Origin: Cetorhinus maximus
Taxonomy: Eukaryota
NCBI RefSeq assembly: GCF_964194155.1
Contig: NC_135890.1
Location: forward strand, 107,322,001-107,386,000
Length of the DNA stretch: 64,000 bases
Direction of reading: 5' to 3'
This document shows positions 9,311 through 60,044 of the stretch, piece by piece (the stretch's first letter is position 1; each line of letters opens with the position of its first letter). Position numbers and translations under genes: made by a program. Under the pieces are notes generated by a model that ran no database searches, was not told the DNA's origin, and saw nothing but the letters and a program-made list of their open reading frames with translations.

Positions 9311-9778
9311 TTAACCACCTCGTAGACGTAGCGTGAGGAAGATGGTGCTCTCAGGCTTAATATTGTAGTCGGCGAGTGTCAGACCATCCTCCAGCTGTTT
9401 CCCCTCGTACACCAGACGCTGCTGACTGGCTGGGACACCCTCCTGCCGTTGTACTCGTACTCTAAAATCCCGAACGGACTCAGAGGGAAGAACGTCATAT
9501 GTAGATGTTTTCCCCTTGTCGTTCCTGAGGAAAATCTGCATCCGCTCCTCGTTCTTGACAATCAGCATGACAGCATCGCTGGGAGAGACATTGTAGTCAC
9601 ACAGCCTCTTGTTGTCCTTCAGCTCCACAGTGCTCCTATTTTGCACCACCAGGCGCTGTTGGAAATAGGGCACATTGGCTTTTTTGTATATCATCATCTT
9701 GAGAGCCGAGATTTGGATGGAAGGGTCAACATCAAGCTCAATATCTTCACCGGTCAAAAACCTCACCTGGAGTCTCAT
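9311..9778 (-). CDS. ISG15: ISG15-like di-ubiquitin protein, 155 aa, intact (copy A)
   Basis: Two ubiquitin-like domains ([17 protein letters not shown]... and [11 protein letters not shown]...[20 protein letters not shown]) ending exactly LRLRGG-stop. Acceptor tctcttaacag lies 12 nt upstream of the ATG (exon starts at 9790), implying a 5'-UTR intron as in fish ISG15. Confidence 0.9.
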
Positions 9779-13495: not shown

Positions 13496-13669
13496 ATGAT
13501 GGAATTATACAGAACTGATCACAGGAGGTTGGACGATTTCATTAAAACTAACCTGGAGCCGAATGAATTTAATATCAATGTGAGGAAGGCTGTGCACAAA
13601 ATCTGTGACTTTTTAAGGAATCGATGTTTTCTCAAACAACCTGAGATCAAAGTAATCAGAGCCGTTAAA
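13496..13669 (+). CDS. OASL: OASL copy A exon 1 (58 aa)
   Basis: MMELYRT...LDDFIKTNLEP...FLRNRCF...AVK, then donor gtaagt. Equivalent to OAS exon A. Confidence 0.9.
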
Positions 13670-19600: not shown

Positions 19601-22600
19601 GAAAAAGCTTCTGACTATCTACTCTGTCCATGCCACTCATAATTTTGTAAACTTCTATCAAGTCGCCTCTCAATCTCTGTCGCTCTAGTGAGAACAATCC
19701 GAGTTTCTCCAACCTCTCCTCATAGTTAATAACCTCCAGACCAGGCAGCATCCTGGTAAACCTCCTCTGCACCCTCTCCAACCCCTCCATATCCTTCTGG
19801 TAATGTGGCGACCGGAATTGCACGCAATATTCCAAACGTGGCCTAACCAAGGATCTATACAGCTGCAGCATGACTTCCCAGCTTTTATACTCAACACCCC
19901 TGTTAATGAAGGCAAACATGCCATATGCCTTCCTGACTACCTTATCCACCTACGTTGCCACTTTCAGTGATCTGTGGACCTGTACACCCAGATCCCTCTG
20001 GCCGTCGATGCACTTAAGGGTTCTGCCATTTACTGTATAATTCCTGCCTGTATTAGGCCTTCCAAAATGCATTACCTCGCATTTGTCCGGATTAAACTCC
20101 ATCTGCAATTTCTCCGCCCAAGTCTCCAACCGATCTATATCCGGTTGTATCCTTTGACAATCCTCTTCACTATCTGCAACTCCTCCAACCTTAGTGTCGT
20201 CTGCAAACTTACTAATTAGCCCAGTTACATTTCCTCCAAAGCATTTATGTATACTACAAACAGCAAAGGTCCCAGCACTGATCCCTGCGGAACTCCACTA
20301 GTCACAGCTCTCCATTCAGAAAAGCACCCTTCCACTGCTACCCTCTGTCTTCTATGACCAAACCAATTCTGTATCCATCTTGCCAGCTCACCTCTGATCC
20401 CATGTGACTTTACCTTGTGTACCAGTCTGCCATGAGGGACCTTGTCAAAGGCCTTACTGAAATCCATGTATATAACATCCACTGCTCTTCCATCGTCAAT
20501 CATCTTTGTCACTTCCTCGAAAAACTCGATCAAGTTAGTGAGACACGACTTCCCCTTCACAGAACCATGCTGCCTCTCACCAATACGCCCATTTGCTTTC
20601 AAATGGTAGTAAATCCTGACACGAATAATCTTCTCCAATAATTTCCCTATCACTGACGTAAGGCTCACCGGCCTGTAATTTCCTGGATTATCCCTGCTAC
20701 CCTTCGTAAACAATTGAACAACATTGACCATTCTCCAGTCCTCTGGGACCTTACCCGTAGCCAGTGAGGATACAAAGATTTCTGTCAAGGCCCCAGCAAT
20801 CTCCTCCCTTGCCTCCCTCAGTACTCTGGGGTAGATCCCAACTGGCCCTGGGGACTTATCCACCTTAATATTCTTCAAGACGCCTAACACCTCCTCTTTT
20901 TTGATCTCAACATGATCCAGGCTATCTACACACTCTTCCCTAGACAAATCGACCGCTAAGTCCTTCTCTTTGGCGAATACTGATGAGAAGTACTCATTTA
21001 GTATCTCTCCCATTTCTTCTGGCTCCACACACAGATTGCCACCTCTGTCCCTGAGTGGGTCTACCCTTTCCCTGGCTACCCACTTGCTTTTTACATATGT
21101 ATAAAAGGCGTTGGGATTTTCCTTAATCCTGGTTGCCAGTGACTTTTCATGACCCCTTTTAGCCCTCCTGACTCCTTGCTTAAGTTTCTTCCTACTTTCT
21201 TTATATTCTCCACGGGCTTCATCTGTTCCTAGCCTTCTAGCCCTTACGAATGCTTCCCTTTTCTTTTTGACTAATCTCACAATATCCTTCGTTATCCAAT
21301 GTTCCTGAAACTTGTCATACTTATCCTTCATCCAAGCATCACCACATCCACCCACTCCATTGACAAATCCTACGGATGAATCTAGGGATCCCCCATATTA
21401 AAAACCAGCAACGAGTTGTCTGGGATGTTTGCATGGAGGGGGATTGAGAGAACCTTTGGAGAAATGTCCATTTGTGCTGTTTCTCCAGCACCTACACCAG
21501 TCTCTGCTGAATTTACAACAGGAGGTTAGCAGATCCCAGAGAAAGTCAGGCTCAGTATTTGGAATAACTCAAGATTCTTGCTTCCCCTCTGCTGGAATTT
21601 GACTTTAGTTGAAGCTGTTGGAATGAATTTGGACGAAGGGGAGAGCTCCTGTCAGCCTTCTGGTTTAGGCTGAACAAATATTAAAACCACTTCTTGATTC
21701 ACAGAAGAATTAAAGAGCAAATCCCCTGAACCCATATTCTGTGGAGGGGCTGTATTCAAGGGAAGTACAGATCAGAGATAGAGCTTCAACCCTTCAATTT
21801 GCACTTACTTCCAATAAGGCTCTACATTTAGAGTGAGGATCAGGGATTTTACCCTTAAATCTTTTACATTCCCTCAATTTTGTGCCTTAAAGTGACCGTC
21901 TCAAGTTATATAAACCTGCAAATGGCAAGTTTGACCAGCCCCCTATACAAAGCCAAAGGCTGTATTCAATTCTCCAGTGCCTGGGGCTCCAGAATGCAGG
22001 ACAAAAGACAAACAAATGCAAGTTAATTAATCGCTGAAGGAACAATTGAAAAACGATGAGGTGGAAATTGGTTCTCATGGTGCCAATTTTCCAAGTGGAA
22101 AATTGAGGCAAAAAATGACCAACTTCAACCAAAGGCGCCTGAAATATGACCGGTGCAATAAGGGTCTTGGACAATTTCCAGGTGTCCGGGCAACTGTCCG
22201 GAACAGGCATTATGCTCCTTGAATATGTTAATGCGGGATCTAATGCCTGTTTAACGAGGTTTACTGCAACTGGTCAGCGCTGAGTAGTCCCCTCAGATTT
22301 TTGCTTCCACGTGCAGCTTCTACATTAATACATTTTTATACTTCATGTAGTGGCAGGGTCTCCTCCCAGTGGTGCTCCCAACTTCACTGCTGCTAGCAGC
22401 CCACCATCACTCACCTCCCCACCCTCTCCCTATCTGATGGTCATTGCTGGAGAGGCAGCTGGCTGATCTTGGTCCTCATGGAACCTGTGAGCTGTTGTTT
22501 CATACTCGATTTGAGTCCGCATCTTCCCAGCAAATTTCTGATAATGTCCCGAGGTCTAATTTCAGTTGAGTCCCTGGCTTCTGGTGCACACTCCCAGCAT

Positions 22601-25600
22601 GCTGCCTACTTCAGGCAAGAAAATGGACCAAAATAAATTTCTACCCCAGTCACTTTCAGGTGAGATATTCAATGAAAGCCCTGCCTGCCTTCTCAGGTGA
22701 GCCTAAAAGATCCTATTGCACTCTCCAGGGAAGAGTAGGGTGTTTTGCTGGATATCTGGATAAAATTTAACCTCAACCAACATAATGAAAGACAGGCAAT
22801 CTAGCCATTTATCTCATTGTTGTTTGTGGGATCTTGCTGTGTGCAAATTGGTTGCTGCATTGCAACTTCAAAATACCTCATCTTGGGAAGTGCTTTGGGA
22901 AATTTTGAGGTTGTGAGAGGTGTTACGTACCTAATGCCAAGTACTTGCTTTCTTTTGAACTCTGACTCTCCAACGCACTATTCTGTAGGATCATGTCCAC
23001 AATTTGCCCATGGACAGTTTGTGTGCTCAGCCTTATCTTTGTGGAGAGATACTGAACGGAGATTTGGCATTTCATCCAAGAGAAGGAGAAAAAGTTGGAA
23101 TGAGGCCACTTTGGGCAGATCTTGTGGACTTCTTAGTGGATGCTGAGGTGGCAGCACTAGACTAGGTCTAGCTTCAACCAGTCCTATCAAGAAAGTTGCT
23201 TGGTTTCCGAAGAATGATGGAAGTAAAATATATGGAAGCAAAAATATAGGATGGAAGGAGGAGTGAGTACTTTTAATATCTTGTATATTTACATTTATCA
23301 ACCATTTGCTCTAGCATGTCAAGCCACGGGAATCCGAACTGAGACATGGCGATCGTCTTCCTGATAAGTATACAGTAGAGCTGCTGGCTATCTATGCCTG
23401 GGAGCAAGGCAATGGGCAGGAGAGATTCAGCACAGCTGAAGGATTCCGGACAGTCCTTGAACTGATCTGCAGATATCAGGATCTGTGCATCTACTGGACT
23501 CAGAACTACAACGTCGAGAATAGAGTCATTGCAGACTTTCTAATAAAGAAACTCAGTGGCAAGAGGTAATCTTCAATTACATTTAAAACTAAAGCAATTA
23601 GAGCTGATTCACTTCTTTGAACATTTCCCAATTAAGGGGGCTGATTCAGGGCGTTTTTAGGGTCTGGTTCAGTTGGTCTTTAATATCCATCCCTAACTTT
23701 GGCGTCATGGGGTGTCGAATAAGTGACATGTTGGCTGCATCATTTGAATGTGATGAATGTGCAGCTGAATGTTTAGAGTGAGAGTGAATCCAACACATTG
23801 TTCTTTGTGAAAATGTGCCCAAGAGGCAACAGTTTTCATAACGTTACACGCGCCCGCACCTGAACTTCCCCCACACTGGGTGGGGTTGGGGGGGCGGGGG
23901 TGGAATTCTTCCCCAGGTATCTTAAGATATTTACAATCTTTAAACTGCTATAAAAATACAAATTAATACAATTAACATCATAATGTAATTACAGAGGAGG
24001 AAGGGTATATTATTGATCTTAGGTCACCGATACGGAATTGAACCAGTGATATGGTTCCAGAGAAAGGGATCAGAGCCTCTTCCTGGCCCAAACAAGGCCA
24101 CTGAAGAAGCTGAGGCTGAGGTTAAGGACTCCCTATGCTGGGATTTCATGTATCCTTGAGTTTAAGGGGAGCCAGCATGAGTTTTCACATCAATATACAG
24201 AGCGAGAAGAAGTGGGCTGGTTTCCTTTTGAATGGAAGAAGATATGAGGCACAGTTTATCATCCTTTGGGAGTAGACCACTTGGTGATATTCTGGACAAC
24301 AATCACCAGCCCTGATTGACCAACATCACCTTGTTTTGCGCTGTCTGGATCAGGTGCCTGATTGGGACACTAGTGGCAGGATTTTGCCCTCATCAGGTGG
24401 GCTCAGCAGGGGCGAGCGGAAGCAGTTGGGAAGCCGACCACTGTCCGCGATTGGGGCCGGACCGTAATTTTAATCTGGCGGGCCAATTAAGGGGAGGAGG
24501 GCGAGAGTGCAAGTTCGAGCAAGTGTGTGTAGGAAAAGCTCCCTGAGGCACAGAGCTGCCTCAGGGGGATGAAGTTATGAAAAATTACAAATAAAGCATT
24601 TTACGATGTTAAGAAACATGTCCTCTCATGTGGCTCTGTCACATCAGTAAGGACATGTTAGAAATTAGTGTGATCATTTTTTTATAATGACGGATCGAAA
24701 CCTCCTCCCTTTCGTGGATGAGGTTTCGCAAAAAATGCAAAGGCCGCTTTGGGCGTAAAGGCTGAGCTGAGAGATGGGACAGAAATTTCCCCCCGTTGGA
24801 GTTGTGGGGGGGTTGTGTAGGGGCGGGTGGGGGCACAAAACCAATTGGTTTATGTGAGTGGCCCAATTAAGGCCCGCCCAGCGTGACGTGCGCCAGGAAG
24901 CACTGAGCGCTCCCTGTGCGGGCGTTGGGGGGGCGATTCCCTGAGTCAGGGCTGCACGCAAAAGAGCACAGAAATCTCCCAGTGGCATGGAGCTGCCTCA
25001 GGGAGATTAAGTTCGAATTGAAAGTTTTTATTTGAGATAGAGAAAAATTTTTCAGACATGTCCACTCATGTGACAGTGTTACATGAGCTTGGACATATTT
25101 ATTAAGTGTTTGAAAATGTTTTATTGAATTAATAAATCCTTCATGAAACCTCATCCTGCCCGTGGATGAGGGTTCATGATAAATGCGAAGGCCGCATTCT
25201 TAACAACTTTAATTACTTTCTTAATGGCCTTAATAGGCCTTTGAGAGTTTGGTGGGCGTGCAGCTGATGCGGCTGTGCGTCCGCCGAACTGAAGATCTAA
25301 ATGATGCGCGGTGACATCGGGACGCCCGCCCGACGTCACCACACATCATTTTACGCGTCAGGCAAGCGGGCATCGCCCCCACTCACCGACCCGAAAATTC
25401 TTCCCATAGTGATGGCTTCCTGCTAAGTACAGAGTTGAGCTGCTGGCTATCTATGCCTGCGAGTAAGGCAATAGGCAGGAGAGAGTCAGCACAGCTGAAG
25501 GGCCCCAGCCAGTCCTTGAACTGATCTGCAGATATCAGCATCTGTGTACCTCCTGGACCAAGTAGGTGACCACCTGAACGCCAAACGTAAGGTTGGACAG

Positions 25601-27489
25601 GCAGCAAAAGATTTAAATCAATTAGATTGTTAATGGCCTTAATAGGCCTGTTAATTGTCGGTGGGCGCACAGCCAATTCCTGCACGTGCCCACCGCAAAT
25701 ATCATGCATCATTTTATGCTCGTTCAGGTCGGGTGACAAACGAGAATTCCTGCCCTAACTTTCTGTGGAGAGTTTAACTTATAAATAAACACAAATATAG
25801 CAATTCCTTCAAATACACAAGTTGGCTGACAGTGAAACTACCGACAGAACAGCGCCAATCATCCAGCAATTTATGCTGATTCCAAACTCATGGGGTTTCT
25901 CTTTCCCAGCGTGAATTGCTGGGTGATTTCCACAATAATAACAATGAGCGCCATTAAACTTGTCATTATTTTGCCAGCAAACCCCGGCCTATGGTTAATA
26001 ATTGTTTTTGGAACGGTTTTCTTTTTCAGGCCAATAATTCTTGACCCAGCTGACCCAACTGGAAATGTGGCTTTTTCTACTGGATGGTATGTCATGGTGG
26101 ATGAGGCTAATAAATGTCTGAGCATGCCATGTGTCTCTCACGTTCGAGCATGGGACGTCCAGGTAAAACGGTTTTAATAAATCATAAAGTTTTGATACAA
26201 AACAGTGTAAAATGTAGAAATTTTGTAGATTGTGTTGTTCAATCTAGGTGTTCCATCTGTCCAGAATACATAGAACCATAGGACTTAGGAGCAGGATTTG
26301 AAATTAGCTCTCAGACGCAAAGGATCATGTTCTCATTGGGGAGAATTTTCGACGAAGTCACCACCAGTCATTTTACGTGTTGGCGAGCGGGGCCCGCCCC
26401 CTCACGCTGACCCGAAGATTCAGGCCATTAATTACCTCAATCCTCCTTTGGAAACTTCATTCTTTAAAGCAAGCTGGAAATGATAGACCAGTTGCCGGGA
26501 TTTAAAGATATATATAGAGAGTCACATTAATCAGAAGCTCCCCAGGTTCAATTCTCAGTCCATACAGAGCTAGAGGATATCAACGAGGTGAAGGTGGGAG
26601 TGCTACAATTCACCTCAACACCGCTGTGGTCAAGTTGAGGAAAGAATCAGCTGGGATTCCCGCTGACCACATATTATATGTGGACAGAAATTTTTTCTCG
26701 GTTGGTGGGCGCGTGCCTGACCCGCTCAAGCATGAAATGACGCATGAGACCTTTGGCCAAATGTGCCGGGGTCAACGCGCAGTTGCGCAATATTTCGGCC
26801 AACGGGTGTGCACTGGAGCCAAAGTTCGCCCGCCGGCAATTAAGACCATTAAGTAATTAATTAACATAAATTTTTCACCGCCTGCCCAACCTAATGGCTG
26901 GCGGGCAGGCAAAAAGGCCAAGCGGCCTTTGCATTTTTTTTGGAAACCTTATCCACAGGCGGACGAGTTTTCCAAGAGCAAATAAAAATAAAATAAAATC
27001 TTTAATTTTTAATTAACAACATGTCCCTGCTTATGTGGTAGAATCACACGAGGGGACATGTTTCAGTACATTTTTAATTTTTATAATTATTTTCTTTCAT
27101 ATCTCTTACAGCTGCCTCAGGGATATTATGCAGCATTCACTCCCGCGCATTCGTGAAGTTCACACCCTTCCTGATCACTCTCCTTCCCCCCCCCCCTCAC
27201 ACAGGCAGCGTTCTTTGATGCAAGGCTCCATCTGGTCATCACAACGTCAATGCAGATATTCATCAGGACTGTAAATGGGCGTGACCTGACACTTGATGTA
27301 TCCCCAACTGACAAGGTTTTGAGCCTGAGAAATAAGATTGAATCTCTGGAGCGCCTTTCATCGAACCAATACTACCTGACCTATGGATCGATACCATTAG
27401 AAGACGGCCGCACACTGGAATCCTACGGCATTAAGCAACATTCCACCATCACCATCAACTTGCGTCTCCGTGGAGGCAAGGAGACTTGA
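13496..27489 (+). CDS. OASL: OASL copy A: OAS domain intact, UBL1 deleted, UBL2 retained (439 aa if the cryptic acceptor at 27204 is used; otherwise truncated or a pseudogene)
   Basis: Exons 13496-13669, 15780-16080, 19022-19197, 23315-23565 and 26030-26162 are all GT-AG with phases 0,1,0,2,0 joining in frame. Remnant last exon 27205?-27489. Motifs GGSSGKGT, SDADLVVF, FDILP, CFTELQRNF, YTVELL.IYAWE, RPIILDPADPT. Confidence 0.85.
15780..16080 (+). CDS. OASL: OASL copy A exon 2 (P-loop and catalytic Asp triad)
   Basis: cctcag|GGSSGKGT..SDADL..DFDILPTFDAL|gtaag. Confidence 0.93.
16642..17913. mobile_element. Non-autonomous TIR element (Harbinger-like) nested in a Penelope end (copy at 41598..42879)
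   Basis: TIRs ggcctggatttcac / gtgaaaatccaggcc with 3-bp TSD aga. Contains an internal degenerate ttgacagctggacagttc minisatellite at ~17290..17515. Confidence 0.75.
17914..18880 (-). mobile_element. Penelope-like retroelement 3' remnant with hammerhead-like motif (copy at ~42880..43840)
   Basis: NRVPLVLTYYPTSL...FPCNHSRYNAWPFTSSLLTVQ...SFQVK remnant. Minus-strand ctgatga-aaggttgacct-gaaatgtt at 17915-17950. Confidence 0.7.
19022..19197 (+). CDS. OASL: OASL copy A exon 3
   Basis: ttacag|...GEFSSCFTELQRNFVK...LKDLIRLLKYWYNQ|gtaagt. Confidence 0.92.
19285..21343 (-). mobile_element. Young 5'-truncated CR1 LINE insertion, present only in unit A
   Basis: RT motifs YMDFSKAFDKVPH and GVPQGSVLGPLLF; FADDTK follows a frameshift near 20230. 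8-bp (aaagaac)n-type tail at 19285-19304. Empty site at ~44240 in unit B. Confidence 0.93.
23315..23565 (+). CDS. OASL: OASL copy A exon 4 (not in the ORF track)
   Basis: ctctag|HVKPRESELRHGDRLPDKYTVELLAIYAWEQG...FRTVLELI...CIYWTQNY...KKLSGK|gtaat. Confidence 0.92.
24762..25560 (+). pseudogene. Degenerate duplicate of OASL exon 4 inside intron 4, split by a MITE (copy A)
   Basis: 24762-24776 plus 25409-25560 align to exon 4 (cttcctgctaagtacagagttgagctgctggctatctatgcc...). No flanking splice sites; contains an internal stop. Confidence 0.85.
24777..25405. mobile_element. MITE insertion, present only in unit A
   Basis: TIRs ggacagaaattt / aaaattcttccc with TSD atg/ata. Empty site at 47527-47530. 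Confidence 0.8.
26030..26162 (+). CDS. OASL: OASL copy A exon 5
   Basis: tttcag|RPIILDPADPTGNVA...AWDVQ|gtaaaa. Confidence 0.92.
27205..27489 (+). CDS. OASL: OASL copy A remnant last exon: end of UBL1 plus complete UBL2
   Basis: AAFFDARLHLVITTS-MQIFIRTVNG...LRLRGGKET*. The 5' boundary relies on a cryptic acceptor. Confidence 0.65.
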   Translation, partial: AAFFDARLHLVITTSMQIFIRTVNGRDLTLDVSPTDKVLSLRNKIESLERLSSNQYYLTYGSIPLEDGRTLESYGIKQHSTITINLRLRGGKET

Positions 27490-38187: not shown

Positions 38188-38244
38188 GAAATGAAACCGA
38201 AACCAAACAGTCAAAACAAGTCGTGTTTCTGAGGAAATCGAAAG
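38188..38244 (+). promoter_or_regulatory. ISRE cluster of the OASL copy B promoter
   Basis: gaaatgaaaccgaaacc (38188-38204) and ggaaatcgaaag (38233-38244). Confidence 0.8.
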
Positions 38245-38459: not shown

Positions 38460-38633
38460 ATGATGGAATTATACAGCACTGATCACAAGAGGTTGGACGA
38501 ATTCATTAAAACTAACCTGGAGCCGAATGAATTTAATATCAATGTGAGGAATGCTGTGCACAGAATCTGTGACTTTTTAAGGAATCGATGTTTTCTCAAA
38601 CAACCTGAGATCAAAGTAATCAGAGCCGTTAAA
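38460..38633 (+). CDS. OASL: OASL copy B exon 1
   Basis: MMELYST...AVK|gtaagt. Confidence 0.9.
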
Positions 38634-41600
38634 GTAAGTTATTTTATTTTTAAAGCAGCACATGGAATTAATAATGTTTACAATACTATTTACGATAACA
38701 GGAACTTTACCTTGCTTAAGTACGGAGATGTTTTCTGACGTGATTGTGAAGTTTCCTGTTTTCTGTGTTGTACTCCCTTCTCTCTAGAATATGTAAACTC
38801 GCTGTAGGACACAGTTTCAAGGGTGGCAGTTGCCTCCAGTATCTCAACTAAATTAATGGGATTAGGTGGGATCATCATCATTTCATGGGACGATCTCAAA
38901 ATGATGTCGATTTGCCCTTACAACGGCACAAATTTCCCGGAAAACCTGGATTAAATGGGGATTATTTGCCTAAAGGGACAGAATGTTTTTGACCTGCTTG
39001 TTTTAAAAGCTCAGCAGCTTTAGATGTTTATCTGTTAAAGGGAACATTTACTTCAAATCTGTTTCTCTTAAAAAACTACATTTGGATGAACTTTTATCAA
39101 ATTATTAATTTTATCATGCTTTAAATATGCTCCTCAAAATCAATAACAGTCCCAATTCCTAAAGTCACAACACACTTGTAAAGCAATTTTAATTTTAAGG
39201 CAATAATGAACTGGTGTGTTACCTAAAATACACATTTCATGTTATTTAGCAATAAATGATACCCATAATTTGGGGAAAGAGGGAATTTCTCTTCACCCCC
39301 ACCACCCCCACCAATTCTGAGCACCCCCTCTATTCATCTGATCTTCAGTCAGCTGCAATAACATCAATTTTCTCTTTAGGGGAGGGAAGCAGGAGTCGGG
39401 ACTGTTACTTTATCCTGGGGCCAGAAGGATACCAGTCACTCTTTGGGATTTTGCCCAGAGTGCTCTTTTAATTGATATGGAGACAGGTCCCTCCTCCAGT
39501 TAAGAGTAGTGGGTGGGCTCTCGAAGCTGGAGGGGCAATCTGGGGCCTTTTAGCTTGAGAGGACCACCTGGCTATAGCAGAAGGTAAGTAACTGAGAGGG
39601 TGCTTCAACATGGAGGTGCTCTTTCAGTAACCAATTGAAAAATTTAGTCAAGAAGTATAGAAATGAGCCAGGCCGCCACTGTGGGTCTTTTGATGGAACG
39701 AGGGGGCGATTCGCTGTTTGGCTGCAATCGCACCAGGCACACGGTTCGGGGGGAGGAGGGGGCCTGCCTGCTTAGGGCACTGCCCCCTCTCCCAGCCATT
39801 GGATGCCTGCCTCCAGGCAGTTGAACTGCCCTAGTCACATCAGGAAAGTGGAGACTGACTGGAATCTGAGTCAGCCTCTAATACCCACTGTTAACAAAGA
39901 TCTTAATGAGTTGACCTAATTGACTTCTGGGTTGGGCATTTCAGCCGGGCTCCCAAACCCGCCTCCCCCAAAATGGCCAATATGGGAATGGTGTCTGGAA
40001 ACCGGCTGCCGACCATTTTGAATTCAGCTCTGTCCCTGACTTCAGCAGGGCCTGAAAATTCAGTGCAGTGAGTCTGTCACATTTACTCTTGTACAAGGGA
40101 TGGCGGAGAGAGCAGGTCACAGCTAAGTGGTAGTTAGTGGCTTCACTCTTGTTTAAGCTTTTTAAAAAGAAAACTGTCAAGAGATTTAGTTCGCAACGTA
40201 TGATTTTATTGTCATACTTAAACAGAAAGTTGTTTGGCAGATTGTGACTTGGTAGCAACTCTGCCACTGGCTAAGAATAAAAATGCAAAGAATTAATCCC
40301 CACAAAAAGATCACCAAATAGGGCAATACCACTCTGTTGATAACATAGTTAAAATTGAGCACAAAGGCTAGACAAGAAGGGAACAATCAGCCCAGGTTTC
40401 CCAATCCTGTTCAGTGAGGACAAGATTAGGCTGTGATGCCCCACATGGTTGAATAGCCTGTTGTCTCCTGTGGTCCAAGATAACATATGAATAATGGCTA
40501 ATGAGGGGAATTGCTGAAGTGGGCTTCTAGACCTCTGTCTCATTAAGTGTCAGCACCTTCACAAAAAGAGGGCAAGAGGAGAAAAATCAAAAGGAAAAGG
40601 GCAGTGAAAATTAAGCCTAAATCAAGAACACAGATAGTCTGCATGGCTTCAATAACTCTTCCACATTTCAGTAATGGTAAGTTCACCAGTCATTGAAATA
40701 ATCATAAATAATTGTCTATTTTCCCTCCTCCTCAGGGAGGGTCGTCAGGCAAAGGAACAGCTTTAAGAAACGGTTCAGATGCGGATCTGGTTGTCTTCCT
40801 CAGTTGTTTCCAGAGTTTCCAGGACCAGAGGAACACCAGGCATGAAATCCTTGAAGGAATCCAGCAAATGCTGGAAAAGTGTGCTTTGAGCATTGCCTAT
40901 GAGATCAGTGATATCAGTATCAATTTTATACCGAACAGCAACAGCCCACCAAAATCGATGAGCTTTTCAATAAAATCAAAGAAGAAAGATTCAGACAGCG
41001 TGGATTTTGATATTTTGCCAACATTCGATGCACTAGGTAAGAATTGATGCGGTTATTAAATCATTAAAGCTCAAGTTTAATTTTAGTTCTTCCAATAGCC
41101 TCTGTTGTCCATCAAGAAAAACAGTGGGTGTTATCAGCTTTGCTTTATCACATGTCCTGTTCCTAGTTAAGATGATGCCATAGTTGAGCTCTATATTTGG
41201 TTATTAGAGTTGTTGCTGAGGGAGAATATGTTGCTTTTTAAGTGGGACATTAGCCTAGGTTTAGGATTGACATTATTAACTGGCGTTAACAGTTTGGTAT
41301 TATGATGCTGATGGAAAGTCTAGGATACAAACACTTTAACGTAAAGAAACAAAATCTAACCAGTAATGTTGATGTCTGAATTTATTTCATTTCCCCTCCT
41401 TTTCTAAAGCAAATGATTCAGTTCCTTAGTCACCAGAAGTGCCTGGTACTTCTGTCAGCTGATCATTTTTCATACAAAAACAGGAGTGTCAGCAGCAACA
41501 CAAAAATAAAATACTGTGGATGCTGAAAATCTGAAATAAAAGCAGAAAGTGCTGAAAATATTCATCGTGCCTAGCAGCGCCTGTGGAGAGAAACAGAGGC

Positions 41601-44600
41601 CTGGATTTCACCATGATGGAGGGCCTTTCCTCCATGGTGAAAATGGTGGACAAGCCCGGAAATAGGTAGTCCCACCCCCAAACACCACACTTTCCATTTT
41701 CATGAGGTGGGAATGAAGTTGGGCTGGGGTTTGTGCATAGGTGGATTATGGACGCAGCTGGTGGTATAAATCACCAGCTGCCTCCACTGAAGTGGGATTT
41801 TGGTCAGCCGGGTGTGTGAAACCCAAATTGTGTAGATTGGACCAGATGAGAGTAGGGCCCAGGTATTTGCCCTGGGGTTGTGAGATTTTCTGGCTCGGCG
41901 AACGCAATCTTTAAAAGTGTCTGCCCTCCAGTCAGATTTTTGGTCAACAAATGGAGGTGAAGCTTAAATAGGAGTTGGGTCGGGTGATCCCAGAACAAGT
42001 GCAGTGGCTAGCGGGTGTAGAGGCGGGATGGGCGCAAGGCCTGAAAAACAAAACACATCCCTGCTACCTCACCCCTTGCCCCCTCACCCTCCTGCACACA
42101 CCCTGTGCCTCGTCCATGCGAACCCATGCTCCTGTACACACACCCCATGCCTCTTCATACCCCCATGCCAACTTAGTGTCAACTCACTCCAACTCCTGCC
42201 CCAACCCACCACCCTTTTCCTCTAACCCTCTTCATGCCAACTCACCAAGAATCCATGGACAGTTCCTTGACAGCTTTGATAGCTGAACAGTTATTTGAAA
42301 GCCAGACAGTTCTTCAATAGTTCCTTGACAGCTGTACAGCTCTTTAACATCTATTTGCTAGCCGGACAGTTCTTTAACAGTTGGACAGTCCTTTAACATT
42401 TATTTGACAGCCGGACAGTTCTTTAAGAGTTTCTTGACAGCTGGACAGTTAAACCTTTCTTTGACATCTGGACAGTTCCAAGGAGATTCTGTGTAAAAAG
42501 TGCATAATCATGTTTAATTTTAATGATCCTAAAGGCTGCCTTACCTCTCCCAAAGGTGTCTCAAGACTCTACACAAAGGGGTACCCTGACTATCCAAAGA
42601 ATCCACCAAGTTCAGACCGCCTCTTACCTGGTCTGCTCTGCGCAGTTCGAGATTCCAGCAGCCAGAGTTCAAAAATCCCATTTCAGTGGAGGAACTGGTG
42701 ATTTAAATGGCCAGCTGCTTCCACAAATCGCGCATGTGCAAAGCCTGGTCCCACTCCAGTCTCGCCCTCACGAAGATGGGAATTACTGGGTTCGGGGGCG
42801 GGACTTAGAAATCTCTGCCATTTTTGAGACTTTTGCCACGCCGGAGAAGCTCTCCGACCCGGGTGTGAAAATCGAGGCCAGAGTTAACATTTCAGGTCAA
42901 CCTTTCATCAGAAATCTTCTTTCGGATCAGGCAAAAGTTAGAAGTGAAATAAGTTTAAAGCAAATCAAAGGGAGGAGGTTGGGAAAAAGAATAAAGGGGA
43001 CAGTGTTTGAAAGGTAGGGGAGATTAGATGACAAATGTGTTGATAGTGAAAGGCCAAAAGGGAGTGGTATTTTGGACAAGTTATAAAAAAGATGTTTCTG
43101 CAGGAGGTGTCAATGGCAGTGTCATGAACAGCTGCCATCTGTAGGCAAAAAAATGGAGAAAAACAGGAGAGAAAAAATAAAATCAGCAAAGAAAAAGGAA
43201 ACAAATGGAGGCTGAGGTCACGATTTGAAGTTGTTAAACTCAATGTTGAATCCAGGAGAGTGTAGAGTGTCTGATTAAAAGATGAAATGCTGTTCCTCAA
43301 GCACACGCTGAGCCTCCAGTGTAGGAGGTCAGCGATAGAGGTCAGAGTGGGAGCATGGTACAGAATTAAAATGACAGGTTTGGGGAAGTTTGGGGTTATC
43401 TTGCAGACTGAACGGAGATGTTCTGCAAAGTAGTCACCAAATCTGCATTTGGCTTCTCCAGTGTAAAGGAGGCAGGGACGGCAGGAATCTAAATTGAGTA
43501 AATTAATGTTTCACCTGGAAGGAATCTTTGAGGCTTTGGACAGTTAGAAGGGAAGAGGTAAAAGGCCAGGCATTGTATCTGCTGTGATTGCATGGAAAGG
43601 TGCTGTGGGAAAGAGAGGGAGGTGCTGGCAGGGTGATTGAGGAGTGGACCAGGGTGTTGCAAAGGAATTGGTCCTTTTCAAAAAGAAGGGAAGATGTTTT
43701 TAGGTGGCGGCGGTGGTGAGAATAGTGGAGGATGATCCATTGAAGAAAAAGGCTGGTGGGGTAGTAGGTGAGGACCAGTGGAACCCTATTGTGGTCCTGG
43801 AGGGAAAAGGAAGGGTTGAGAGAAATATGTAAAATGGAACAGATATGGCACAACGGACTTAAAATGTAAGAGTGTTAAAGGATTACTTGGCCTAGAGAGT
43901 GGGGGCACCATACCCTGCTTACTTGTGATGACCACAAACACTTTCTGTTGCTCATTAAGCATTTCATTTCTTACAGAGGGAACAGACAATGCCTATGAAG
44001 CCCACCTCAAGCTAATCAATTTAGTAAACGAAAATGGAGCTCTAGGTGGGGAATTTTCTCCCTGTTTTACTGAGCTTCAGAGAAACTTTGTGAAGCAGTG
44101 TAAACCAAAACTTAAAGACTTGATTCGCCTGCTGAAGCATTGGTACAAGCAGGTAAGTGACTGGGGAATGTGCTAATTGTTAATGCTTGGAGGTTATGGG
44201 AGGATTGTAACACTAAATGACAGCTTCCCTCTGTGTCCCAACGTGCACCCGCTCCATTGACAAATACTACAGGTGAATCCAGGGATTCCCCATATTAAAA
44301 ACTAGCAAAGAGTTGTCTGGGATGTTTGCATGGAGGGGGATTGAGAGAACCTTTGGAGAAATGTCCATTTGTGCTGTTTCTCCAGCACCTACACCAGTCT
44401 CTGCTGAATTTACAACAGGAGGTTAGCAGATCCCAGAGGAAGTCAGGCTCAGTATTTGGAATAACTCAAGATTCTTTCTTCCCCTCTGCTGGAATTTGAC
44501 TTTGGTTGAAGCTGTTGGAATGAATTTGGACGAAGGGGAGAGCTCCTGTCCACCTTCTGGTTTAGGCTGAACAAATATTAAAACCACTTCTTGATTCTCA

Positions 44601-47600
44601 AAAGAATTAAAGAGCAAGTCCCCTGAACCCATATTCTGTGGAGGGACTGTATTCAAGGGAAGTACAGATCAGAGATAGAGCCTCAACCCTTCAATTTCCA
44701 CCTACTTCCAATAAGGCTCTACATTTAGAGTGAGGATCAGGGATTTTATCCTTAAATCTTTTACAGTCCCTCAATATTGTGCCTTAAAGTGAACGTCTCA
44801 AGTTATATAAACCTGCAAATGGCAAGTTTGACCAGCCCCCTATACAAAGCCAAAGGCTGTATTCAATTCTCCAGTGCCTGGGGCTCCAGAATGCAGGACA
44901 AAAGACAACCAAATGCAAGTTAATTAATCGCTGAAGGAACAATTGAAAAATGATGAGGTGGAAATTGGTTCTCATGGTGCCAATTTTCCAAGTGGGAAAT
45001 TGAGGCAAAAAATGACCAATTTCAACCAAAGGCGCCTGAAATATGACCGGTGCAATAAGGGTCTTGGACAATTTCCAGGTGTCCGGGCAACTGTCCGGAA
45101 CAGGCATTATGCTCCTTGAATATGTTAATGCAGGATCTAATGCCTGTTTAACGAGGTTTACTGCAACTGGTCAGCGCTGAGTGGTCACCTCAGATTTTTG
45201 CTTCCACGTGCAACTTCTACATTAATACATTTTTATACTTCATGTAGGGGCAGGGTCTCCTCCCAGTGGTGCTCCCAACTTCACTGCTGCTACCAGCCCA
45301 CCATCACCCACCTCCCCACCCTCTCCCTATCTGATGGTCATTGCTGGAGAGGCAGCTGGCTGATCTTGGTCCTCATGGAACCTGTGAGCTGTTGTTTCAT
45401 ACCCGATTTGAGTCCGCATCTTCCCAGCAAATTTCTGATAATGTCCCGAGGTCTAATTTCAGTTGAGTCCCTGGCTTCTGGTGCACACTCCCAGCATGCT
45501 GCCTACTTCAGGCAAGAAAATGGACCAAAATAAATTTCTACCCCAGTCACTTTCAGGTGAGATATTCAATGAAAGCCTTGCCTGCCCTCTCAGGTGAGCC
45601 TAAACGATCCTATCACACTCTCCGGGGAAGAGTAGGGTGTTCTGCTGGATATCTGGATAAAATTTAACCTCAACCAACATAATGAAAAACAGACAATCTC
45701 GCCATTTATCTCATTGTTGTTTGTGGGATCTTGCTGTGTGCAAATTGGTTGCTGCATTGCAACTTCAAAATACCTCATCTTGGGAAGTGCTTTGGGAAAT
45801 TTTGAGGTTGTGAGAGGTGTTACGTACCTAATGCCAAGTACTTGCTTTCTTTTGAACCCTGACTCTCCAACGCACTATTCTGTAGGATCATGTCCACAAT
45901 TTGCCCATGGACAGTTTGTGTGCTCAGCCTTATCTTTGTGGAGAGATACTGAACGGAGATTTGGCATTTCACCCAATAGAAGGAGAAAAAGTTGGAATGA
46001 GGCCACTTTGGGCAGATCTTGTGGATTTCTTAGTGCATGCTGGGGTGGCAGCACTAGACTAGGTCTAGCTTCAGCCAGTCTTATCAAGAAAGTTGCTTGT
46101 CCTCCGAAGGATGATGGAAGTAAAATGTATGGAAGCAAAAATATAGGATGGAAGGAGGAGTGAGTACTTTTAATATCTTGTATATTTACACTTATCAATC
46201 ATTTGCTCTAGCATGTCAAGCCACGGAAATCCGATCTGAGACATGGCGATCGTCTTCCTGCTAAGTATACAGTGGAGCTGCTGGCTATCTATGCCTGGGA
46301 GCAAGGCAATGGGCAGGAGAGATTCAGCACAGCTGAAGGGTTCCGGACAGTCCTTGAACTGATCTGCAGATATCAGGATCTGTGCATCTACTGGACTCAG
46401 AACTACAACGTCGAGAATAGAGTCATTGCAGACTTTCTAATAAAGGAACTCAGTGGCAAGAGGTAATCTTCAAATACATTTAAAACTAAACCAATTAGAG
46501 CTGTTTCATTTCTTTGAACAGCTCCCAAGTAAGGGGGCGTTTTTAGGGTCTGGTTCAGCTGGTCTTTAATATCCATCCCTAACTTTGGCGTCATGGAGTG
46601 TCGAATAAGTGACATATTGGCTGCATCATTTGAACCTGATGAATGTGCAGCTGAATGTTTGGAGTGAGAGTCAATCCAACACATTGTTCTTTGTGAAAAT
46701 GTGCCCAAGAGGCAACAGTTTTCATAACGCTACATTCTCATGTGAGATTGTACTAAACTACCGTTAAAAAGTCTGCTCTTGCTCCTTCCTCAACTAATGT
46801 TTAAGGTCAAAAAGATTAACTCTCATTTACAAACCTCATCATCATTTCATCTCTTTGCCCTATCCTGCCTCAGCCACATCCTCCAGCCTTTTTTCCAACT
46901 CATGCCCTCAACCTCCTGTGTATTGCCATCTCTCTTATTTGGCACCATTAGCAAAGTTATAAGTCATCTTAGTGCCACATTACGGAACTCTTCATAAAAT
47001 TCTTTGCCTCACTTTGTCTTTTCCCATTTTCAATAATCGCCTGAAAACCTTCGGTCAGATCCTCAGATTCTACTACCGGTCAGGATCTGTTTCTTTCCGC
47101 TGTATCTTAAGATATTTACAATATTTAAATCTAAAAGAAGCCGACCACTGCTCACGATTGGGGCCGGACCGTGATTTCATGCTGGTGGGCCAATTAAGGC
47201 CCGCCCAGCGTGAAACGCGCACTGCAGCACGGCCTGTATTGGGGGGGAAGGAGGGCAAGAGTGCAAGTTCGCGCAAGCGCGAGTAGGAAAAGCTCCCTGA
47301 GGCACAGAGCTGCCTCAGCGGAATGAAGTTATGAAAATTTAAAAAGAAAGCATTTTAAGATGTTAAAAAACATGTCCCCTCATGTGACTCTGTCACATCA
47401 GTAAGGACATGTTAGAAATTAGTATGAACATTTTTTTAAATGACGGATTGAAATCTCATCCCGTCTGTGGATGAGGTTTCGCAAAAAATGCAAAGGCCGC
47501 TTTGACCGCAAAGGCTGAGCTGAGAGATGGTGATCGTCTTCCTGCTAAGTACAGAGTGGAGCTGCTGGCTATCTATGCCTGGGGGCAAGGCAATGGGCAG

Positions 47601-50326
47601 GAGAGAGTCAGCACAGCTGAAGGGCTCCAGACAGTCCTTGAACTGATCTGCACATATCAACATCTGTGTATCCACTGGACCAAGTAGGTGACGAGCTGAA
47701 CGCCAACCGTAAGGTTGGACAGGCAGCAAAAAATTTAAATCAATTAGGTTGTTAATGGCCTTAATAGGCCTGTTAGTTGTCGGTGGGCGCGCTGCCAATT
47801 CCTGCGCGTGCCCATCAACCCAAATATCACACGTCATGTACGCCCGCCCAACGAGCGAGGAATCCTGCCCTAACTTTCTGTGGAGAGTTTAACTTGTAAA
47901 TAAACACAAATATAGCAATTCCTTGAAATACACAAGACGGTTGACAGTGAAACTACCGACAGAACAGCGCCAATCATCCAGCAATTTATGCTGATTCCAA
48001 ACCCATGGGGTTTCTCTTTCCGACCTTGAATTGTTGGATGATTTCCACAATAATAACAATGAGCGCCATTAAACTTGTCAATATTTTGCCAGCAAACCCC
48101 GGCCTATGGTTAATAATTGTTTTTGGAACTTTTTTATTTTTCAGGCCAATAATTCTTGACCCAGCTGACCCAACTGGAAATGTGGCTTTGTCTACTGGAT
48201 GGTATGTCATGGTGGCTGAGGCTATGAAATGTCTGAGCATGCCATGTGTCTCTCAAGTTCGAGCATGGGACGTCCAGGTAAAACGGTTTTAATAAATCAT
48301 AAAGTTTTGAAACAAAACAGTATAAAATGTAGTAATTTTGTAGATTGTGTTGTTCAATCTAGGTGTTCCATCTGTATAGAATACATAGGACCATAGGACT
48401 GAGGAGCAGGATTTGAAATTAGCTCTCAGACGCAAAGGATCATGTTCTCATTGGGGAGAATTTTCGACGAAGTCACCACCTGTCATTTTACGCGTTGGCG
48501 AGCGGGGCCCGCCCCCTCACGCTGACCCGAAGATTCAGGCCATTAATTACCTCAATCCTCCTTTGGAAACTTCATTCTTTAAAGCAAGCTGGAAATGATA
48601 GACCAGTTGCCGGGATTTAAAGATATATATAGAGAGTCACATTAATCAGAAGCTCCCCAGGTTCAATTCTCAGTCCATACAGAGTTAGAGGATATCAACG
48701 AGGTGAAGGTGGGAGTGCTACAATTCACCTCAACACCCCTGTGCTCAAGTTGCAGAAAGAATCAGCTGGGATTCCCGCTGACCACATGTTATATGTGGAC
48801 AGAAATTTTTTCTCGGTTGGTGGGCGCCTGCCTGACCCGCTCAAGCATGAAATGACGCATGAGACCTTTGGCCAAACGTGCCGGGGTCAACGTGCAGTTG
48901 CGCAATAGTTCGGCCAACGGGTGTGCACTGGAGCCAAAGTGCGCCCGCCGGCAATTAAGACCATTAAGTAATTAATTAACATAAATTTTTCACTGCCTGC
49001 CCAACCTAATGGCTGGCGGGCAGGCGAAAAGGCCAAGCGGCCTTTGCATTTTTTTTGGAAACCTTATCCACAGGCGGACGAGTTTTCCAAGAGCAAATAA
49101 AAATAAAATAAAATCTTTAATTTTTAATTAACAACATGTCCCTGCTTATGTGGTAGAATCACACGAGGGGACATGTTTCAGTACATTTTTAATTTTTATA
49201 ATTATTTTCTTTCATATCTCTTACAGCTGCCTCAGGGATATTATGCAGCATTCACTCGCGCGTATTCGTGAAGTTCACACCCTTCCTGATCACTCCCCCC
49301 CCCCACCCTCCTCACACAGGCACCGCTCAGCGCTGCCACTCACATGTCACGCTGGGCGGGCCTTCATTGGCCGCCAGCGTGAAATCTCGGTGCAGTGCCG
49401 ATCGCGAGCGGCTTCCCAACCAGCCCTGCCGAGCCCGCAGGCCAAGGGCAAAATTCTGCCCCATGTGTGTGGGTATCAGATAAATTTAAGATCCAACTTG
49501 GTTGGACAGTTGAGTGAAAATCACTGTCTAAGCTCACACAAGAACAATGGCCACTTGTGTGAGATACGGAGTGTAGTTATCACCTCATAACAATCAATCA
49601 GGAGAGAAAGGATGAAAATTAAGGAGATAAACGCAAAAAACTGCAGATACTGGAAATCCAAAACAAAAACAAAAATACCTGGAAAAACTCAGCAGGTCTG
49701 GCCGCATCTGCGGAGAGGAGCACAGTTAACGCTTCGAGTCCGAATGACCCTTCAACAGAACTAAGTAAAAATTAAGGAGATGTAATTATCAGAGCACTTA
49801 GAAACTAGGACACAACTCATTGCTACATTCTTATCTTTTTTTTTTGTCTTAGCCAATAAAAGAGTTTGAAATCACTGTGTTTACACTGGATGGGAGCTCA
49901 TTAAGCCTGAATGTCAATATTGACAACACAATCTCAATGATCAAGAAACAAATCCAGCAAAAATGGGACATTCCAGTTTACCAGCAACGCCTGAGCTTTA
50001 ATGAAGCCATTCTGGATGACAACAAATCCTTGTTGCATTCCGGAATATTCTTTGATGCAAGGCTCCATCTGGTCATCACAACGTCAATGCAGATATTCGT
50101 CAGGACTGTAAATGGGCGTGACCTGACACTTGACGTATCCCCAACTGACAAGGTTTTGAGCCTGAGAAATAAGATTGAATCTCTGGAGCAGCTTTCATCG
50201 AGCCAATACTACCTGACCTATGGATCGATACCATTAGAAGACGGCCGCACACTGGAATCCTACGGCATTAAGCAACATTCCACCATCACCATCAACTTGC
50301 GTCTCCGTGGAGGCAAGGAGACTTGA
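38460..50326 (+). CDS. OASL: OASL copy B, complete: OAS domain plus two UBL domains, 502 aa
   Basis: Exons 38460-38633, 40736-41036, 43977-44152, 46212-46462, 48145-48277 and 49853-50326 total 1509 nt, all GT-AG, with no stop or frameshift. Ends LRLRGGKET. Confidence 0.93.
40736..41036 (+). CDS. OASL: OASL copy B exon 2
   Basis: GGSSGKGT..SDADL..FDILP with GT-AG boundaries. Confidence 0.93.
43977..44152 (+). CDS. OASL: OASL copy B exon 3
   Basis: GEFSPCFTELQRNFVK...LIRLLKHWYKQ|gtaagt. Confidence 0.92.
46212..46462 (+). CDS. OASL: OASL copy B exon 4
   Basis: HVKPRKSDLRHGDRLPAKYTVELLAIYAWE...KELSGK|gtaat. Confidence 0.92.
47515..47682 (+). pseudogene. Degenerate duplicate of OASL exon 4 inside intron 4 (copy B)
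   Basis: Translates ELRDGDRLPAKYRVELLAIYAWGQGNGQERVSTAEGLQTVLELICTYQHLCIHWT. Flanked on both sides by MITE sequence. Confidence 0.88.
48145..48277 (+). CDS. OASL: OASL copy B exon 5
   Basis: RPIILDPADPTGNVALSTGW...AWDVQ|gtaaaa. Confidence 0.92.
48797..49461. mobile_element. MITE in OASL intron 5 (truncated copy at 26682..27210 in unit A)
   Basis: TIRs ggacagaaatttt / aaaattctgccc. Internal motifs are shared with the intron-4 MITEs. Confidence 0.7.
49629..49767 (-). mobile_element. Short Penelope-end-like insertion with 14-bp TSD, same family as 8733..8891
   Basis: TSD aaaattaaggagat at 49615-49628 and 49768-49781. Minus strand reads acttagttctgttgaagggtcattcggactcgaagcgttaactg. Confidence 0.75.
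49853..50326 (+). CDS. OASL: OASL copy B exon 6: tandem UBL1-UBL2
   Basis: Poly-T tract gtcttag|PIKEFEITVFTLDG...IPVYQQRLSF...MQIFVRT...LRLRGGKET*. Confidence 0.93.
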   Translation, partial: PIKEFEITVFTLDGSSLSLNVNIDNTISMIKKQIQQKWDIPVYQQRLSFNEAILDDNKSLLHSGIFFDARLHLVITTSMQIFVRTVNGRDLTLDVSPTDKVLSLRNKIESLEQLSSSQYYLTYGSIPLEDGRTLESYGIKQHSTITINLRLRGGKET

Positions 50327-59462: not shown

Positions 59463-60044
59463 CTAACTGCAGCTGAGAAAACAGGAGTATATGAAAAAAT
59501 TGATCAATTGAGGCACTATAAATAATTTACTTCTGTAATAGCTAGAGTTCATCGTATAAACCGCTGCAAGTGCAGGTAAACCACCTCGTAGACGTAGCAT
59601 GAGGAAGATGGTGCTCTCAGACTGAATATTGTAGTCGGCGAGTGACCGACCATCCTCCAGCTGTTTCCCCTCGCAAACCAGACGCTGCTGACTGGCTGGG
59701 ACACCCTCCTGCCGTTGTACTCGTGCTCTAAAATCCTCAACGGACTCAGAGGGACGGACGTCATATGTAGATCTTTTCCCCTTGTCGTTCCTGGGGAAAA
59801 TCTGCATCCGCTCCTCGTTCTTGACAAACAGCATGACAGCATCGCTGGGAGAGACATTGTAGTCACACAGCCTCTTGTTGTCCTTCAGCTCCACAGTGCT
59901 CCCATTTTGCACCACCAGGCGCTGTTGGAAATAGGGCACATTGGCTTTTTTGTATATCATCATCTTGAGAGCTGAGATTTGGATGGAAGGGTCAACATCA
60001 AGTTCAATATCTTCACCGGTCAAAAACCTCACCTGGAGTCTCAT
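59463..60044 (-). CDS. ISG15: ISG15-like copy C with stop-loss and 38-aa C-terminal extension (possibly an incipient pseudogene)
   Basis: Near-identical to 9311..9778. The codon after LRLRGG is TTA (59577-59579) instead of TAA. Carries L84P and Y124C relative to copy A. Confidence 0.85.

What the first reader, a model, noticed from the sequence alone, without database searches (positions are those of the whole stretch)
49853..50326. Catalytically intact OASL ending in a masked conjugation motif (LRLRGG-KET)
Seen: the P-loop GGSSGKGT and all three catalytic Asp (SDADL; FDILP) are retained. UBL2 ends with the ubiquitin/ISG15 motif LRLRGG plus three residues, in both copies A and B. Known: human OASL is catalytically inactive and lacks the terminal GG; avian OASLs are active with GG-type termini; ubiquitin-family precursors mature by cleavage after GG; bacterial CBASS CD-NTases (same nucleotidyltransferase superfamily) are conjugated through their C-terminus by Cap2. 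Inference: a DUB or USP18-like protease could remove KET so that an active 2-5A synthetase is attached to targets by E1/E2/E3, or the tail could act as a decoy or tripwire for viral deISGylases, in an animal that also retains ISG15 next door.
Basis: partly seen in the sequence, partly recalled or inferred. Interest (0 to 1): 0.8.

Follow-up and report, generated by a model that had tools for sequence, protein, structure and literature searches.

The report
Shark antiviral enzyme with hidden tag
This shark antiviral OASL gene ends in the ubiquitin attachment motif LRLRGG capped by three extra residues; as already reported for bird OASL, the cap is likely trimmed so the enzyme can be linked to other proteins, and the motif's conservation across sharks, rays and chimaeras suggests this is an old jawed-vertebrate feature rather than a bird novelty.

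Summary
Copy A keeps the tail but has lost the last exon's acceptor and UBL1. The proposed mechanism is already in print: avian OASLs are also made with residues after LRLRGG, are cleaved there and form conjugates (PMC8764230), so the masking is not a shark peculiarity. What the data add: R72/R74/G75/G76 are invariant in 16 of 16 cartilaginous-fish species while the tail varies (3-21 aa), the signature of a processed pro-form, in animals that also keep ISG15-like genes (19 ORFs here, interleaved with the OAS genes). Shark OASL UBL2 carries Y42/T44/P49/N70, matching the ISG15 patch that excludes UBA1 and is read by deISGylases, whereas the neighbouring ISG15-like protein is ubiquitin-like there. 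Against simple UBA7 charging, both UBA1-like E1 genes found have UBA1-type contact residues. The cluster also holds a CaaX-ended OAS paralog and a chimera with swapped last exon. Verdict: new member of a known kind; cleavage likely, conjugation plausible, charging enzyme open.

The parts
38188..38203 (+). Tandem ISRE-like element (two overlapping GAAAN1-2GAAAC cores) about 270 bp upstream of the start codon of copy B; same element before copy A at 13223-13238, absent before broken copy C
   Evidence: 4 of the 14 strict cores in the 64 kb window lie in these two spots; no shuffle control run
38460..38633 (+). OASL copy B exon 1 (aa 1-58)
   Evidence: intron 1 joined in contigs of 3 of 4 runs laid
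40736..41036 (+). Exon 2: P-loop GGSSGKGT, Asp73 (40778), Asp75 (40784), Asp150 (41009)
43977..44152 (+). Exon 3: CFTELQR and KLKDLIRLLKHWYK stretch matching active OAS1
46212..46462 (+). Exon 4, OAS1_C domain
48145..48277 (+). Exon 5, LDPADPTGN motif; ends in phase 0
49853..50086 (+). Last exon, UBL1; ends without GG
50087..50314 (+). Last exon, UBL2 (M424-G499) with Y465/T467/P472/N493 = ubiquitin positions 42/44/49/70 and LRLRGG at 50297-50314
50315..50326 (+). KET cap and TGA stop; residues 499-502 have pLDDT under 50 in the model
13496..27489 (+). OASL copy A: catalytic exons intact, about 2.1 kb retroelement-like insertion in intron 3, last exon lacking acceptor and UBL1, cryptic in-frame acceptor before 27205, ends LRLRGG-KET
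9311..9778 (-). ISG15-like di-UBL gene, 155 aa, ends LRLRGG-stop, divergent from copy A
59463..60044 (-). Second ISG15-like ORF; stop after GG changed to TTA, frame runs on 38 codons
63235..63408 (+). Exon 1 of copy C; beyond the window it lacks exon 3 and UBL1 and ends LRLRVG-KET

Best explanation
Copy B encodes an OASL with intact catalytic motifs and two ubiquitin-like domains ending LRLRGG-KET; it is likely an interferon-induced, active 2-5A synthetase made as a pro-protein whose cap would be cut after Gly499 by a host UBL protease, after which the enzyme is predicted to be attached to lysines of itself and other proteins, as reported for chicken OASL. Shown: gene model, motifs, invariance of the motif and freedom of the tail, splicing in related animals. 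From literature: activity of a chimaera OASa with RNase L in yeast; cleavage and conjugation of avian OASL. Inferred: cleavage and conjugation of the shark protein; that the ISG15-type patch on UBL2 (Y42/T44/P49/N70) steers it to a USP18-like protease and away from ordinary ubiquitin machinery. The charging E1 is not identified.
For: L71, R72, R74, G75, G76 invariant in 16 of 16 cartilaginous-fish species examined (one unit per species; L73 15 of 16), while position 77 has 7 different residues and none is proline; mean modal frequency 0.99 for positions 71-76 against 0.77 for 12-70 in 15 species. UBL1 ends without GG in 15 of 15. All 10 named species with an unfused model have a tail, 3-21 aa. 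The only GG change among 7 last exons in this genome is in a copy that also lacks exon 3, UBL1 and the ISRE. Catalytic region aligns with human and pig OAS1; the model's best fold matches are dsRNA-bound OAS1, TM 0.87-0.90 by target. C. milii OASa plus RNase L arrests yeast growth (PMC10400998). Avian pro-OASL is cleaved and chicken OASL conjugates (PMC8764230). ISG15 Trp123 is a deISGylase recognition site (PMC10693564); Y occupies the equivalent position in 16 of 16.
Against: No experiment on any shark OASL tail was found. T44 and N70 match the ISG15 patch that selects against UBA1, yet both UBA1-like genes found in this genome keep UBA1-type F/F/G/S at the contact positions where UBA7 has Y885/Y892/I894/Y896, so no matched E1 pocket was found; position 68 (ISG15 F149) is variable and P49 is kept in only 9 of 16. 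The chicken conjugation data come from overexpression, are mostly self-conjugates, and I saw no GG-mutant control in the text read. RNase L was not found in this genome with PF06479 (two IRE1-like hits only), which is inconclusive. The 16 species are related, so they are not 16 independent tests; five of them plus Narcine come from fused gene models in which the tail end is uncertain.
Confidence: 0.6

Rival explanations
1. The tail is recognised and possibly cut, but shark OASL is not conjugated: the polar patch keeps it off both E1s, and LRLRGG is kept as a docking or cleavage site for UBL proteases (regulation, turnover, or a decoy for viral deISGylases).
For: T44 14 of 16, N70 15 of 16, Y42 16 of 16 is the pattern reported to block UBA1; no E1 with UBA7-type contacts was found; a tail is always present in shark OASL whereas 11 of 13 shark ISG15-like proteins end bare at GG.
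Against: Chicken OASL conjugates; lungfish, tortoise and axolotl units end bare at GG, which fits conjugation readiness; the E1 search used a stricter first look and one exon, so a diverged UBA7 may be missed.
Confidence: 0.27
2. LRLRGG is a structural or RNA-binding relic of the captured ubiquitin-like exon and is never processed; KET is just the end of the protein.
For: L71 ends the last strand of the fold and basic residues could aid RNA binding; avian UBL deletion is reported to reduce RNA binding (PMC8764230 discussion). Three mammalian OASLs retrieved lack the motif (P0198, P0211, P0283), so OASL can work without it.
Against: G75-G76 lie in the low-confidence unstructured tail yet are invariant, with a sharp loss of conservation at position 77; UBL1 has the same fold without GG.
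Confidence: 0.1
3. Copy B is partly an assembly duplicate, so copy counts are inflated; the gene itself is real.
For: 27 kb around B are 99.7-99.9% identical to a block 95.8 kb upstream.
Against: The two blocks differ in their CaaX-type genes (97.8% identity, different last exon); orthologues exist in every cartilaginous fish retrieved, so the tail does not depend on this assembly.
Confidence: 0.25

Closest known systems
Avian OASL pro-form / OASLylation (chicken, PDB 7SBI; PMC8764230)
   Same: Active-type OAS domain, tandem UBL, LRLRGG followed by a short tail; di-UBLs fall on the same side of the tree.
   Different: Sharks keep ISG15-like genes beside it; UBL2 has Y42/P49/N70 where zebra finch has R42/E49/L70; several paralogs instead of one gene.
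OASa.U class of jawed vertebrates (PMC10400998)
   Same: NTase-OAS1_C-UBL architecture, described as ancestral and present in cartilaginous fish; C. milii member functional with RNase L.
   Different: The passages read do not discuss the LRLRGG tail, conjugation, the CaaX paralog or ISG15 linkage.
pro-ISG15
   Same: Tandem UBL, LRLRGG plus removable tail; UBL2 matches ISG15 T125, N151, often P130 and R92, with Tyr for W123.
   Different: Fused to a 345-aa enzyme; F149 and N89 equivalents not kept; in the tree the shark OASL di-UBL is separate from the shark ISG15-like clade (98/96).
Human OASL
   Same: Same domain order; OAS region matches PDB 4XQ7 at 227 bits.
   Different: Human OASL is inactive and lacks LRLRGG (PMC8764230); the shark protein scores higher against active OAS1 (285 bits).
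Bacterial CBASS CD-NTase conjugation by Cap2
   Same: A nucleotidyltransferase joined to targets through its C-terminus (recalled, no call).
   Different: No UBL module and a different E1-E2; analogy, not homology of the conjugation step; not tested.

Membership tests
OASL (OASa.U) | NTase + OAS1_C + C-terminal UBL in one reading frame | tested here: met
OASL (OASa.U) | Spliced transcript joining enzyme exons to the UBL exon | tested here: inconclusive
   Joint 48275-49851 seen in contigs of 2 of 4 runs from a related organism, kind 'RNA?' guessed; no RNA holder listed for this species
Active 2-5A synthetases | P-loop and three catalytic Asp | tested here: met
Active 2-5A synthetases | dsRNA-dependent 2-5A synthesis | not testable with these tools
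   Indirect only: C. milii OASa in yeast
Active 2-5A synthetases | RNase L partner in the genome | tested here: inconclusive
   PF06479 gave two IRE1-like exons among 13 candidates
Avian-type conjugatable pro-OASL | LRLRGG at the end of UBL2 followed by a short non-proline tail | tested here: met
Avian-type conjugatable pro-OASL | Motif conserved in orthologues, tail not | tested here: met
   GG 16 of 16; position 77 seven residues
Avian-type conjugatable pro-OASL | Cleavage after GG and isopeptide conjugates | not testable with these tools
   Shown for chicken only
ISG15-pathway (UBA7) substrates | Polar patch N89/T125/F149/N151 and W123/P130 on the C-terminal UBL | tested here: inconclusive
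   T 14, N 15, P 9, aromatic 16 of 16; F149 equivalent 1 of 16
ISG15-pathway (UBA7) substrates | Cognate E1 with UBA7-type contacts Y885/Y892/I894/Y896 | tested here: not met
   Both UBA1-like exons found have F/F/G/S; search not exhaustive
ISG15 (for the neighbouring gene) | Free-standing divergent di-UBL ending LRLRGG, closest non-polyubiquitin match ISG15 | tested here: met
   Full-length match to human ISG15 103.7 bits against 88.1 for chicken OASL UBL; orthology to mammalian ISG15 not tested by tree, none was available as a stored sequence

The most novel reading that the evidence does not exclude
The ancestral jawed-vertebrate OAS locus was a linked kit of one enzyme with swappable last exons: a GG-type tandem UBL for covalent attachment, a CaaX-type UBL for membrane anchoring, and free ISG15 genes beside them. 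In sharks it is OASL, not the neighbouring ISG15-like protein, that carries the surface now typical of mammalian ISG15, so shark OASL would be a second, separately recognised interferon-induced modifier with its own protease and E1 specificity; avian OASLylation would be a retained ancestral pathway rather than a substitute for lost ISG15.
Probability: 0.3. Interest if true: 0.72.

Novelty: new member of a known kind. Interest (0 to 1): 0.4.

Why it matters
Conjugation of OASL has been reported in one paper, for chicken, and framed against the loss of ISG15 in birds. The same pro-form in sharks, rays, chimaera, coelacanth, lungfish and caecilian models, in genomes that keep ISG15-like genes, would make it ancestral to jawed vertebrates and lost in mammals. 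The shark pair (OASL UBL2 with an ISG15-type patch, ISG15-like UBL2 with a ubiquitin-type patch, and a second UBA1-like E1 with unspecialised contacts) is a natural test set for how UBA7/USP18 specificity arose. The core claim of the finding, however, is a known mechanism in a new lineage.

Tried and rejected
Literature searches for a description of the shark tail, of ISG15-OASL linkage or of a fish CaaX OAS: OASL+LRLRGG (10 papers), OASL+shark+ubiquitin-like (4), ISG15+OASL+synteny+cartilaginous (0), OASL+conjugat+deOASLylase (1), CaaX terms (17 hold, 12 listed), synteny terms (5), ancestral terms (3); listings only except the six papers opened; the library lacks most subscription journals, so absence from print is not established. 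No RNA holder listed for this species; not used as evidence. A transcript-level check of the letters at the stop codon in relatives could not be made; the differences shown were cut (642 not shown). E1_UFD family search rang nowhere, including controls: uninformative. RNase L search inconclusive; USP18 was not searched in this genome (PMC5381560 passages place its origin at the jawed-vertebrate duplication). Synteny with P2RX7/HNF1A as in human was not confirmed: the flanking P2X exon scores best to P2X2/P2X3 and the HNF1 match on this contig is 27 Mb away. The idea that shark OASL UBL and ISG15 descend from one captured exon was tested by tree and not resolved: di-ubiquitin falls between the two clades (Rhinatrema, Gopherus, Candoia and several near-redundant rows dropped). 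Complex prediction not run (enzyme-substrate pair, only E1 fragments in hand). Earlier scan notes: none. C-terminal diglycine as a degron after cleavage was considered from memory and not tested.

Full report
Observation. The cited stretch 49853-50326 is the last exon of a six-exon gene. Joining exons 38460-38633, 40736-41036, 43977-44152, 46212-46462, 48145-48277 and 49853-50326 gives one frame of 502 residues with GT-AG introns, identical to a protein that NCBI names for Cetorhinus maximus, XP_078410449.1. Pfam finds NTP_transf_2, OAS1_C and two ubiquitin domains. The P-loop, SDADL (Asp73, Asp75) and FDILP (Asp150) align with human and pig OAS1, as do CFTELQR, KHWY and LDPADPTGN. An AlphaFold model on a 33-sequence alignment (mean pLDDT 88.4, residues 499-502 under 50) matches dsRNA-bound OAS1 best. 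LRLRGG is at ubiquitin positions 71-76, then KET and TGA. In four runs from three other coded organisms (kind 'RNA?' guessed), contigs join introns 1, 3, 4 and 5 at the predicted sites, intron 2 with four letters unplaced, and run through the stop into the 3' flank; intron 5 was joined in 2 of 4 runs. No RNA holder was listed for this species. A tandem ISRE-like element lies about 270 bp upstream of A and B (no shuffle control).

Correction on copy A. It ends LRLRGG-KET but lacks about 725 bp that hold the acceptor and UBL1. A cryptic in-frame AG would give a 439-aa protein with UBL2 only; NCBI's fused models use the same junction in sister copies, which is prediction, not proof.

Surroundings. 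The window is G000:C12:107322001-107386000. The cluster runs from a P2X gene through 19 ISG15-like ORFs to 8 OAS units: three complete GG-KET genes, copy A, two broken copies without exon 3, UBL1 and ISRE (one with GG changed to VG), one gene with a single UBL ending SWCILM, and one chimera of the latter's enzyme exons with the GG-KET exon. B lies in a block 99.7-99.9% identical to one 95.8 kb upstream, so counts may include an assembly duplicate.

Conservation of the tail. With one unit per species, L71, R72, R74, G75 and G76 are invariant in 16 of 16 cartilaginous fishes (sharks, rays, chimaera), L73 in 15; position 77 shows seven residues, none proline. All 10 named species with an unfused model have a tail: KET, KEI, KAS (twice), RGT, and 12-21 residue tails in Heptranchias, three batoids and Callorhinchus. 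Six species come from fused models, where the tail end is unsure. UBL1 lacks GG in 15 of 15. One Rhinoraja paralog has LQLRGG, and some units in fused Rhinoraja models end LRLVS; these rows were not in the one-per-species count. Outside cartilaginous fish the motif occurs in coelacanth (SIPY tail), lungfish (one unit bare), caecilian, tortoise (bare), axolotl (LMRLRGG bare in one model, LREG in another), zebra finch (VGPQLP) and a snake model, and is missing in the three mammalian OASLs retrieved. An invariant GG in a disordered tail with free residues behind it is what processed UBL precursors look like (established knowledge).

What is already known. Shepard et al. 2022 (PMC8764230; I read parts 1-6 of 7, the whole main text, not the supplements, which hold the conjugate list and may bear on controls) state that avian OASLs are translated with several residues after LRLRGG, that 7 of 14 nairoviral OTUs and half of six PLpros cut the chicken pro-form, and that tagged chicken OASL conjugates in DF-1 cells, mainly to itself. 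So masking, cleavage and conjugation are all described. PMC10400998 (passages and section 7) calls NTase-OAS1_C-UBL the ancestral jawed-vertebrate form and shows C. milii OASa working with RNase L in yeast. PMC6307210 (passages) adds nothing on the tail. The searches turned up no paper on the shark tail or on ISG15-OAS linkage, within an open-access library.

What is different in sharks. PMC10693564 and PMC10409785 (passages) map ISG15 N89, W123, T125, P130, F149, N151 onto ubiquitin L8, R42, I44, Q49, H68, V70, report that the Thr125 patch selects against UBA1, and call W123 a deISGylase recognition site. Shark OASL UBL2 has Y at 42 (16 of 16), T at 44 (14), P at 49 (9), N at 70 (15) and R at 11 (13; ISG15 R92), but a variable 68. 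The adjacent ISG15-like proteins have R42 and Q49 in 13 of 13, a hydrophobic 44 in 12 of 13 and F68 in 9; finch, tortoise, lungfish and coelacanth OAS-UBLs have R42. The two shark di-UBL types form separate clades, OASL with finch and lungfish, ISG15-like with the coelacanth model, so the patch looks independently gained or differently retained; no mammalian or teleost ISG15 was in the tree. Against a neat UBA7 story: the genome search found three E1 genes; the two UBA1-like ones both keep F926/F933/G935/S937-type residues in the exon that contacts this patch, and a search with that exon found no fourth gene. The search is a floor, not proof of absence.

Mechanism. Most likely (0.6): interferon induces an active synthetase; a host USP cuts after Gly499; the exposed GG is charged and the enzyme is linked to itself and other proteins, which could cluster it near viral RNA or mark it for turnover. 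Gene, motifs and conservation are shown; induction, activity, cleavage and conjugation in sharks are inferred. The main rival (0.27) is recognition or cleavage without conjugation, since the polar patch has no matching E1 pocket in what I found. A pure relic (0.1) fits poorly with GG invariance.

Verdict. A real, conserved feature and a new member of the avian-type pro-OASL kind. The remaining value lies in the deep conservation alongside ISG15-like genes, the ISG15-type surface on OASL, and the cluster of GG-type, CaaX-type and chimeric genes. Interest 0.4. Contig-level gene neighbourhoods in other species and a read-level check at the stop codon remain open.

Noticed in passing
G000:C12:107406099-107420647 (L013, L014): Second OAS class in the cluster: one UBL ending SWCILM, a CaaX-type prenylation motif by form. 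Similar ends in models from other sharks (CILM, CSLM), chimaera (CSLM), coelacanth (CYIM, CCII), caecilians (CSIL, CTLL), an amphisbaenian (CVCL), and UBL-less gecko and opossum OAS (CTIL). Suggests the OAS1 p46-type membrane anchor is old; not found described for fish in the listing.
   Followed up: partly
G000:C12:107310288-107321462 (L019, L018): Chimeric gene: exons 1-5 are 97.8% like the CaaX-type gene, then switch within intron 5 to 97% identity with copy B and end in the tandem UBL LRLRGG-KET exon; both sides phase 0. A natural last-exon swap.
   Followed up: partly
G000:C12:107074034-107382044: 19 ISG15-like di-UBL ORFs on the minus strand, 17 with a stop right after GG and 2 read-through, partly interleaved with 8 OAS units. 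OASL and ISG15-like proteins share the same record length in 8 of 8 shark/ray assemblies where both had chromosome-scale lengths; the agrin NtA match is on another contig, C15.
   Followed up: partly
P0173/P0308 (coelacanth) and P0202 (snake Candoia): These OAS models end in a di-UBL that groups with the shark ISG15-like clade (99/97; coelacanth 96/95), not with OASL UBLs: either real exon exchange or gene models fused with a neighbouring ISG15.
   Followed up: partly
G000:C6:12124182-12282309: Second UBA1-like E1 gene, more diverged than the one on C4153 and scoring higher to UBA7 in one of two exons compared (58.7 vs 43.8 bits; 38.6 vs 41.0 in the other), with UBA1-type UBL-contact residues.
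   Followed up: partly
window 20225-21397 (-): Reverse-transcriptase-like ORF of 390 codons inside the about 2.1 kb insertion in intron 3 of copy A, absent from copy B; looks like a LINE remnant (label from recall).
   Followed up: no
window 47511-47684 and 25416-25562 (+): Degenerate second copy of exon 4 in intron 4 of each GG-type gene, about 76-79% identical at protein level, some with stops.
   Followed up: no
G000:C2:65179423-65179632: Lone OAS1_C match outside the cluster; possibly the OASb class.
   Followed up: no
G000:C12:106978971-107022000 (-): P2X receptor gene 52 kb before the first ISG15-like ORF; exon tested is closest to P2X2/P2X3.
   Followed up: partly
P0130 (unnamed record): OASL ending LRLRGG-KCDVV, a tail with a cysteine four residues from the end, so GG cap and a CaaX-like form coincide.
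   Followed up: no
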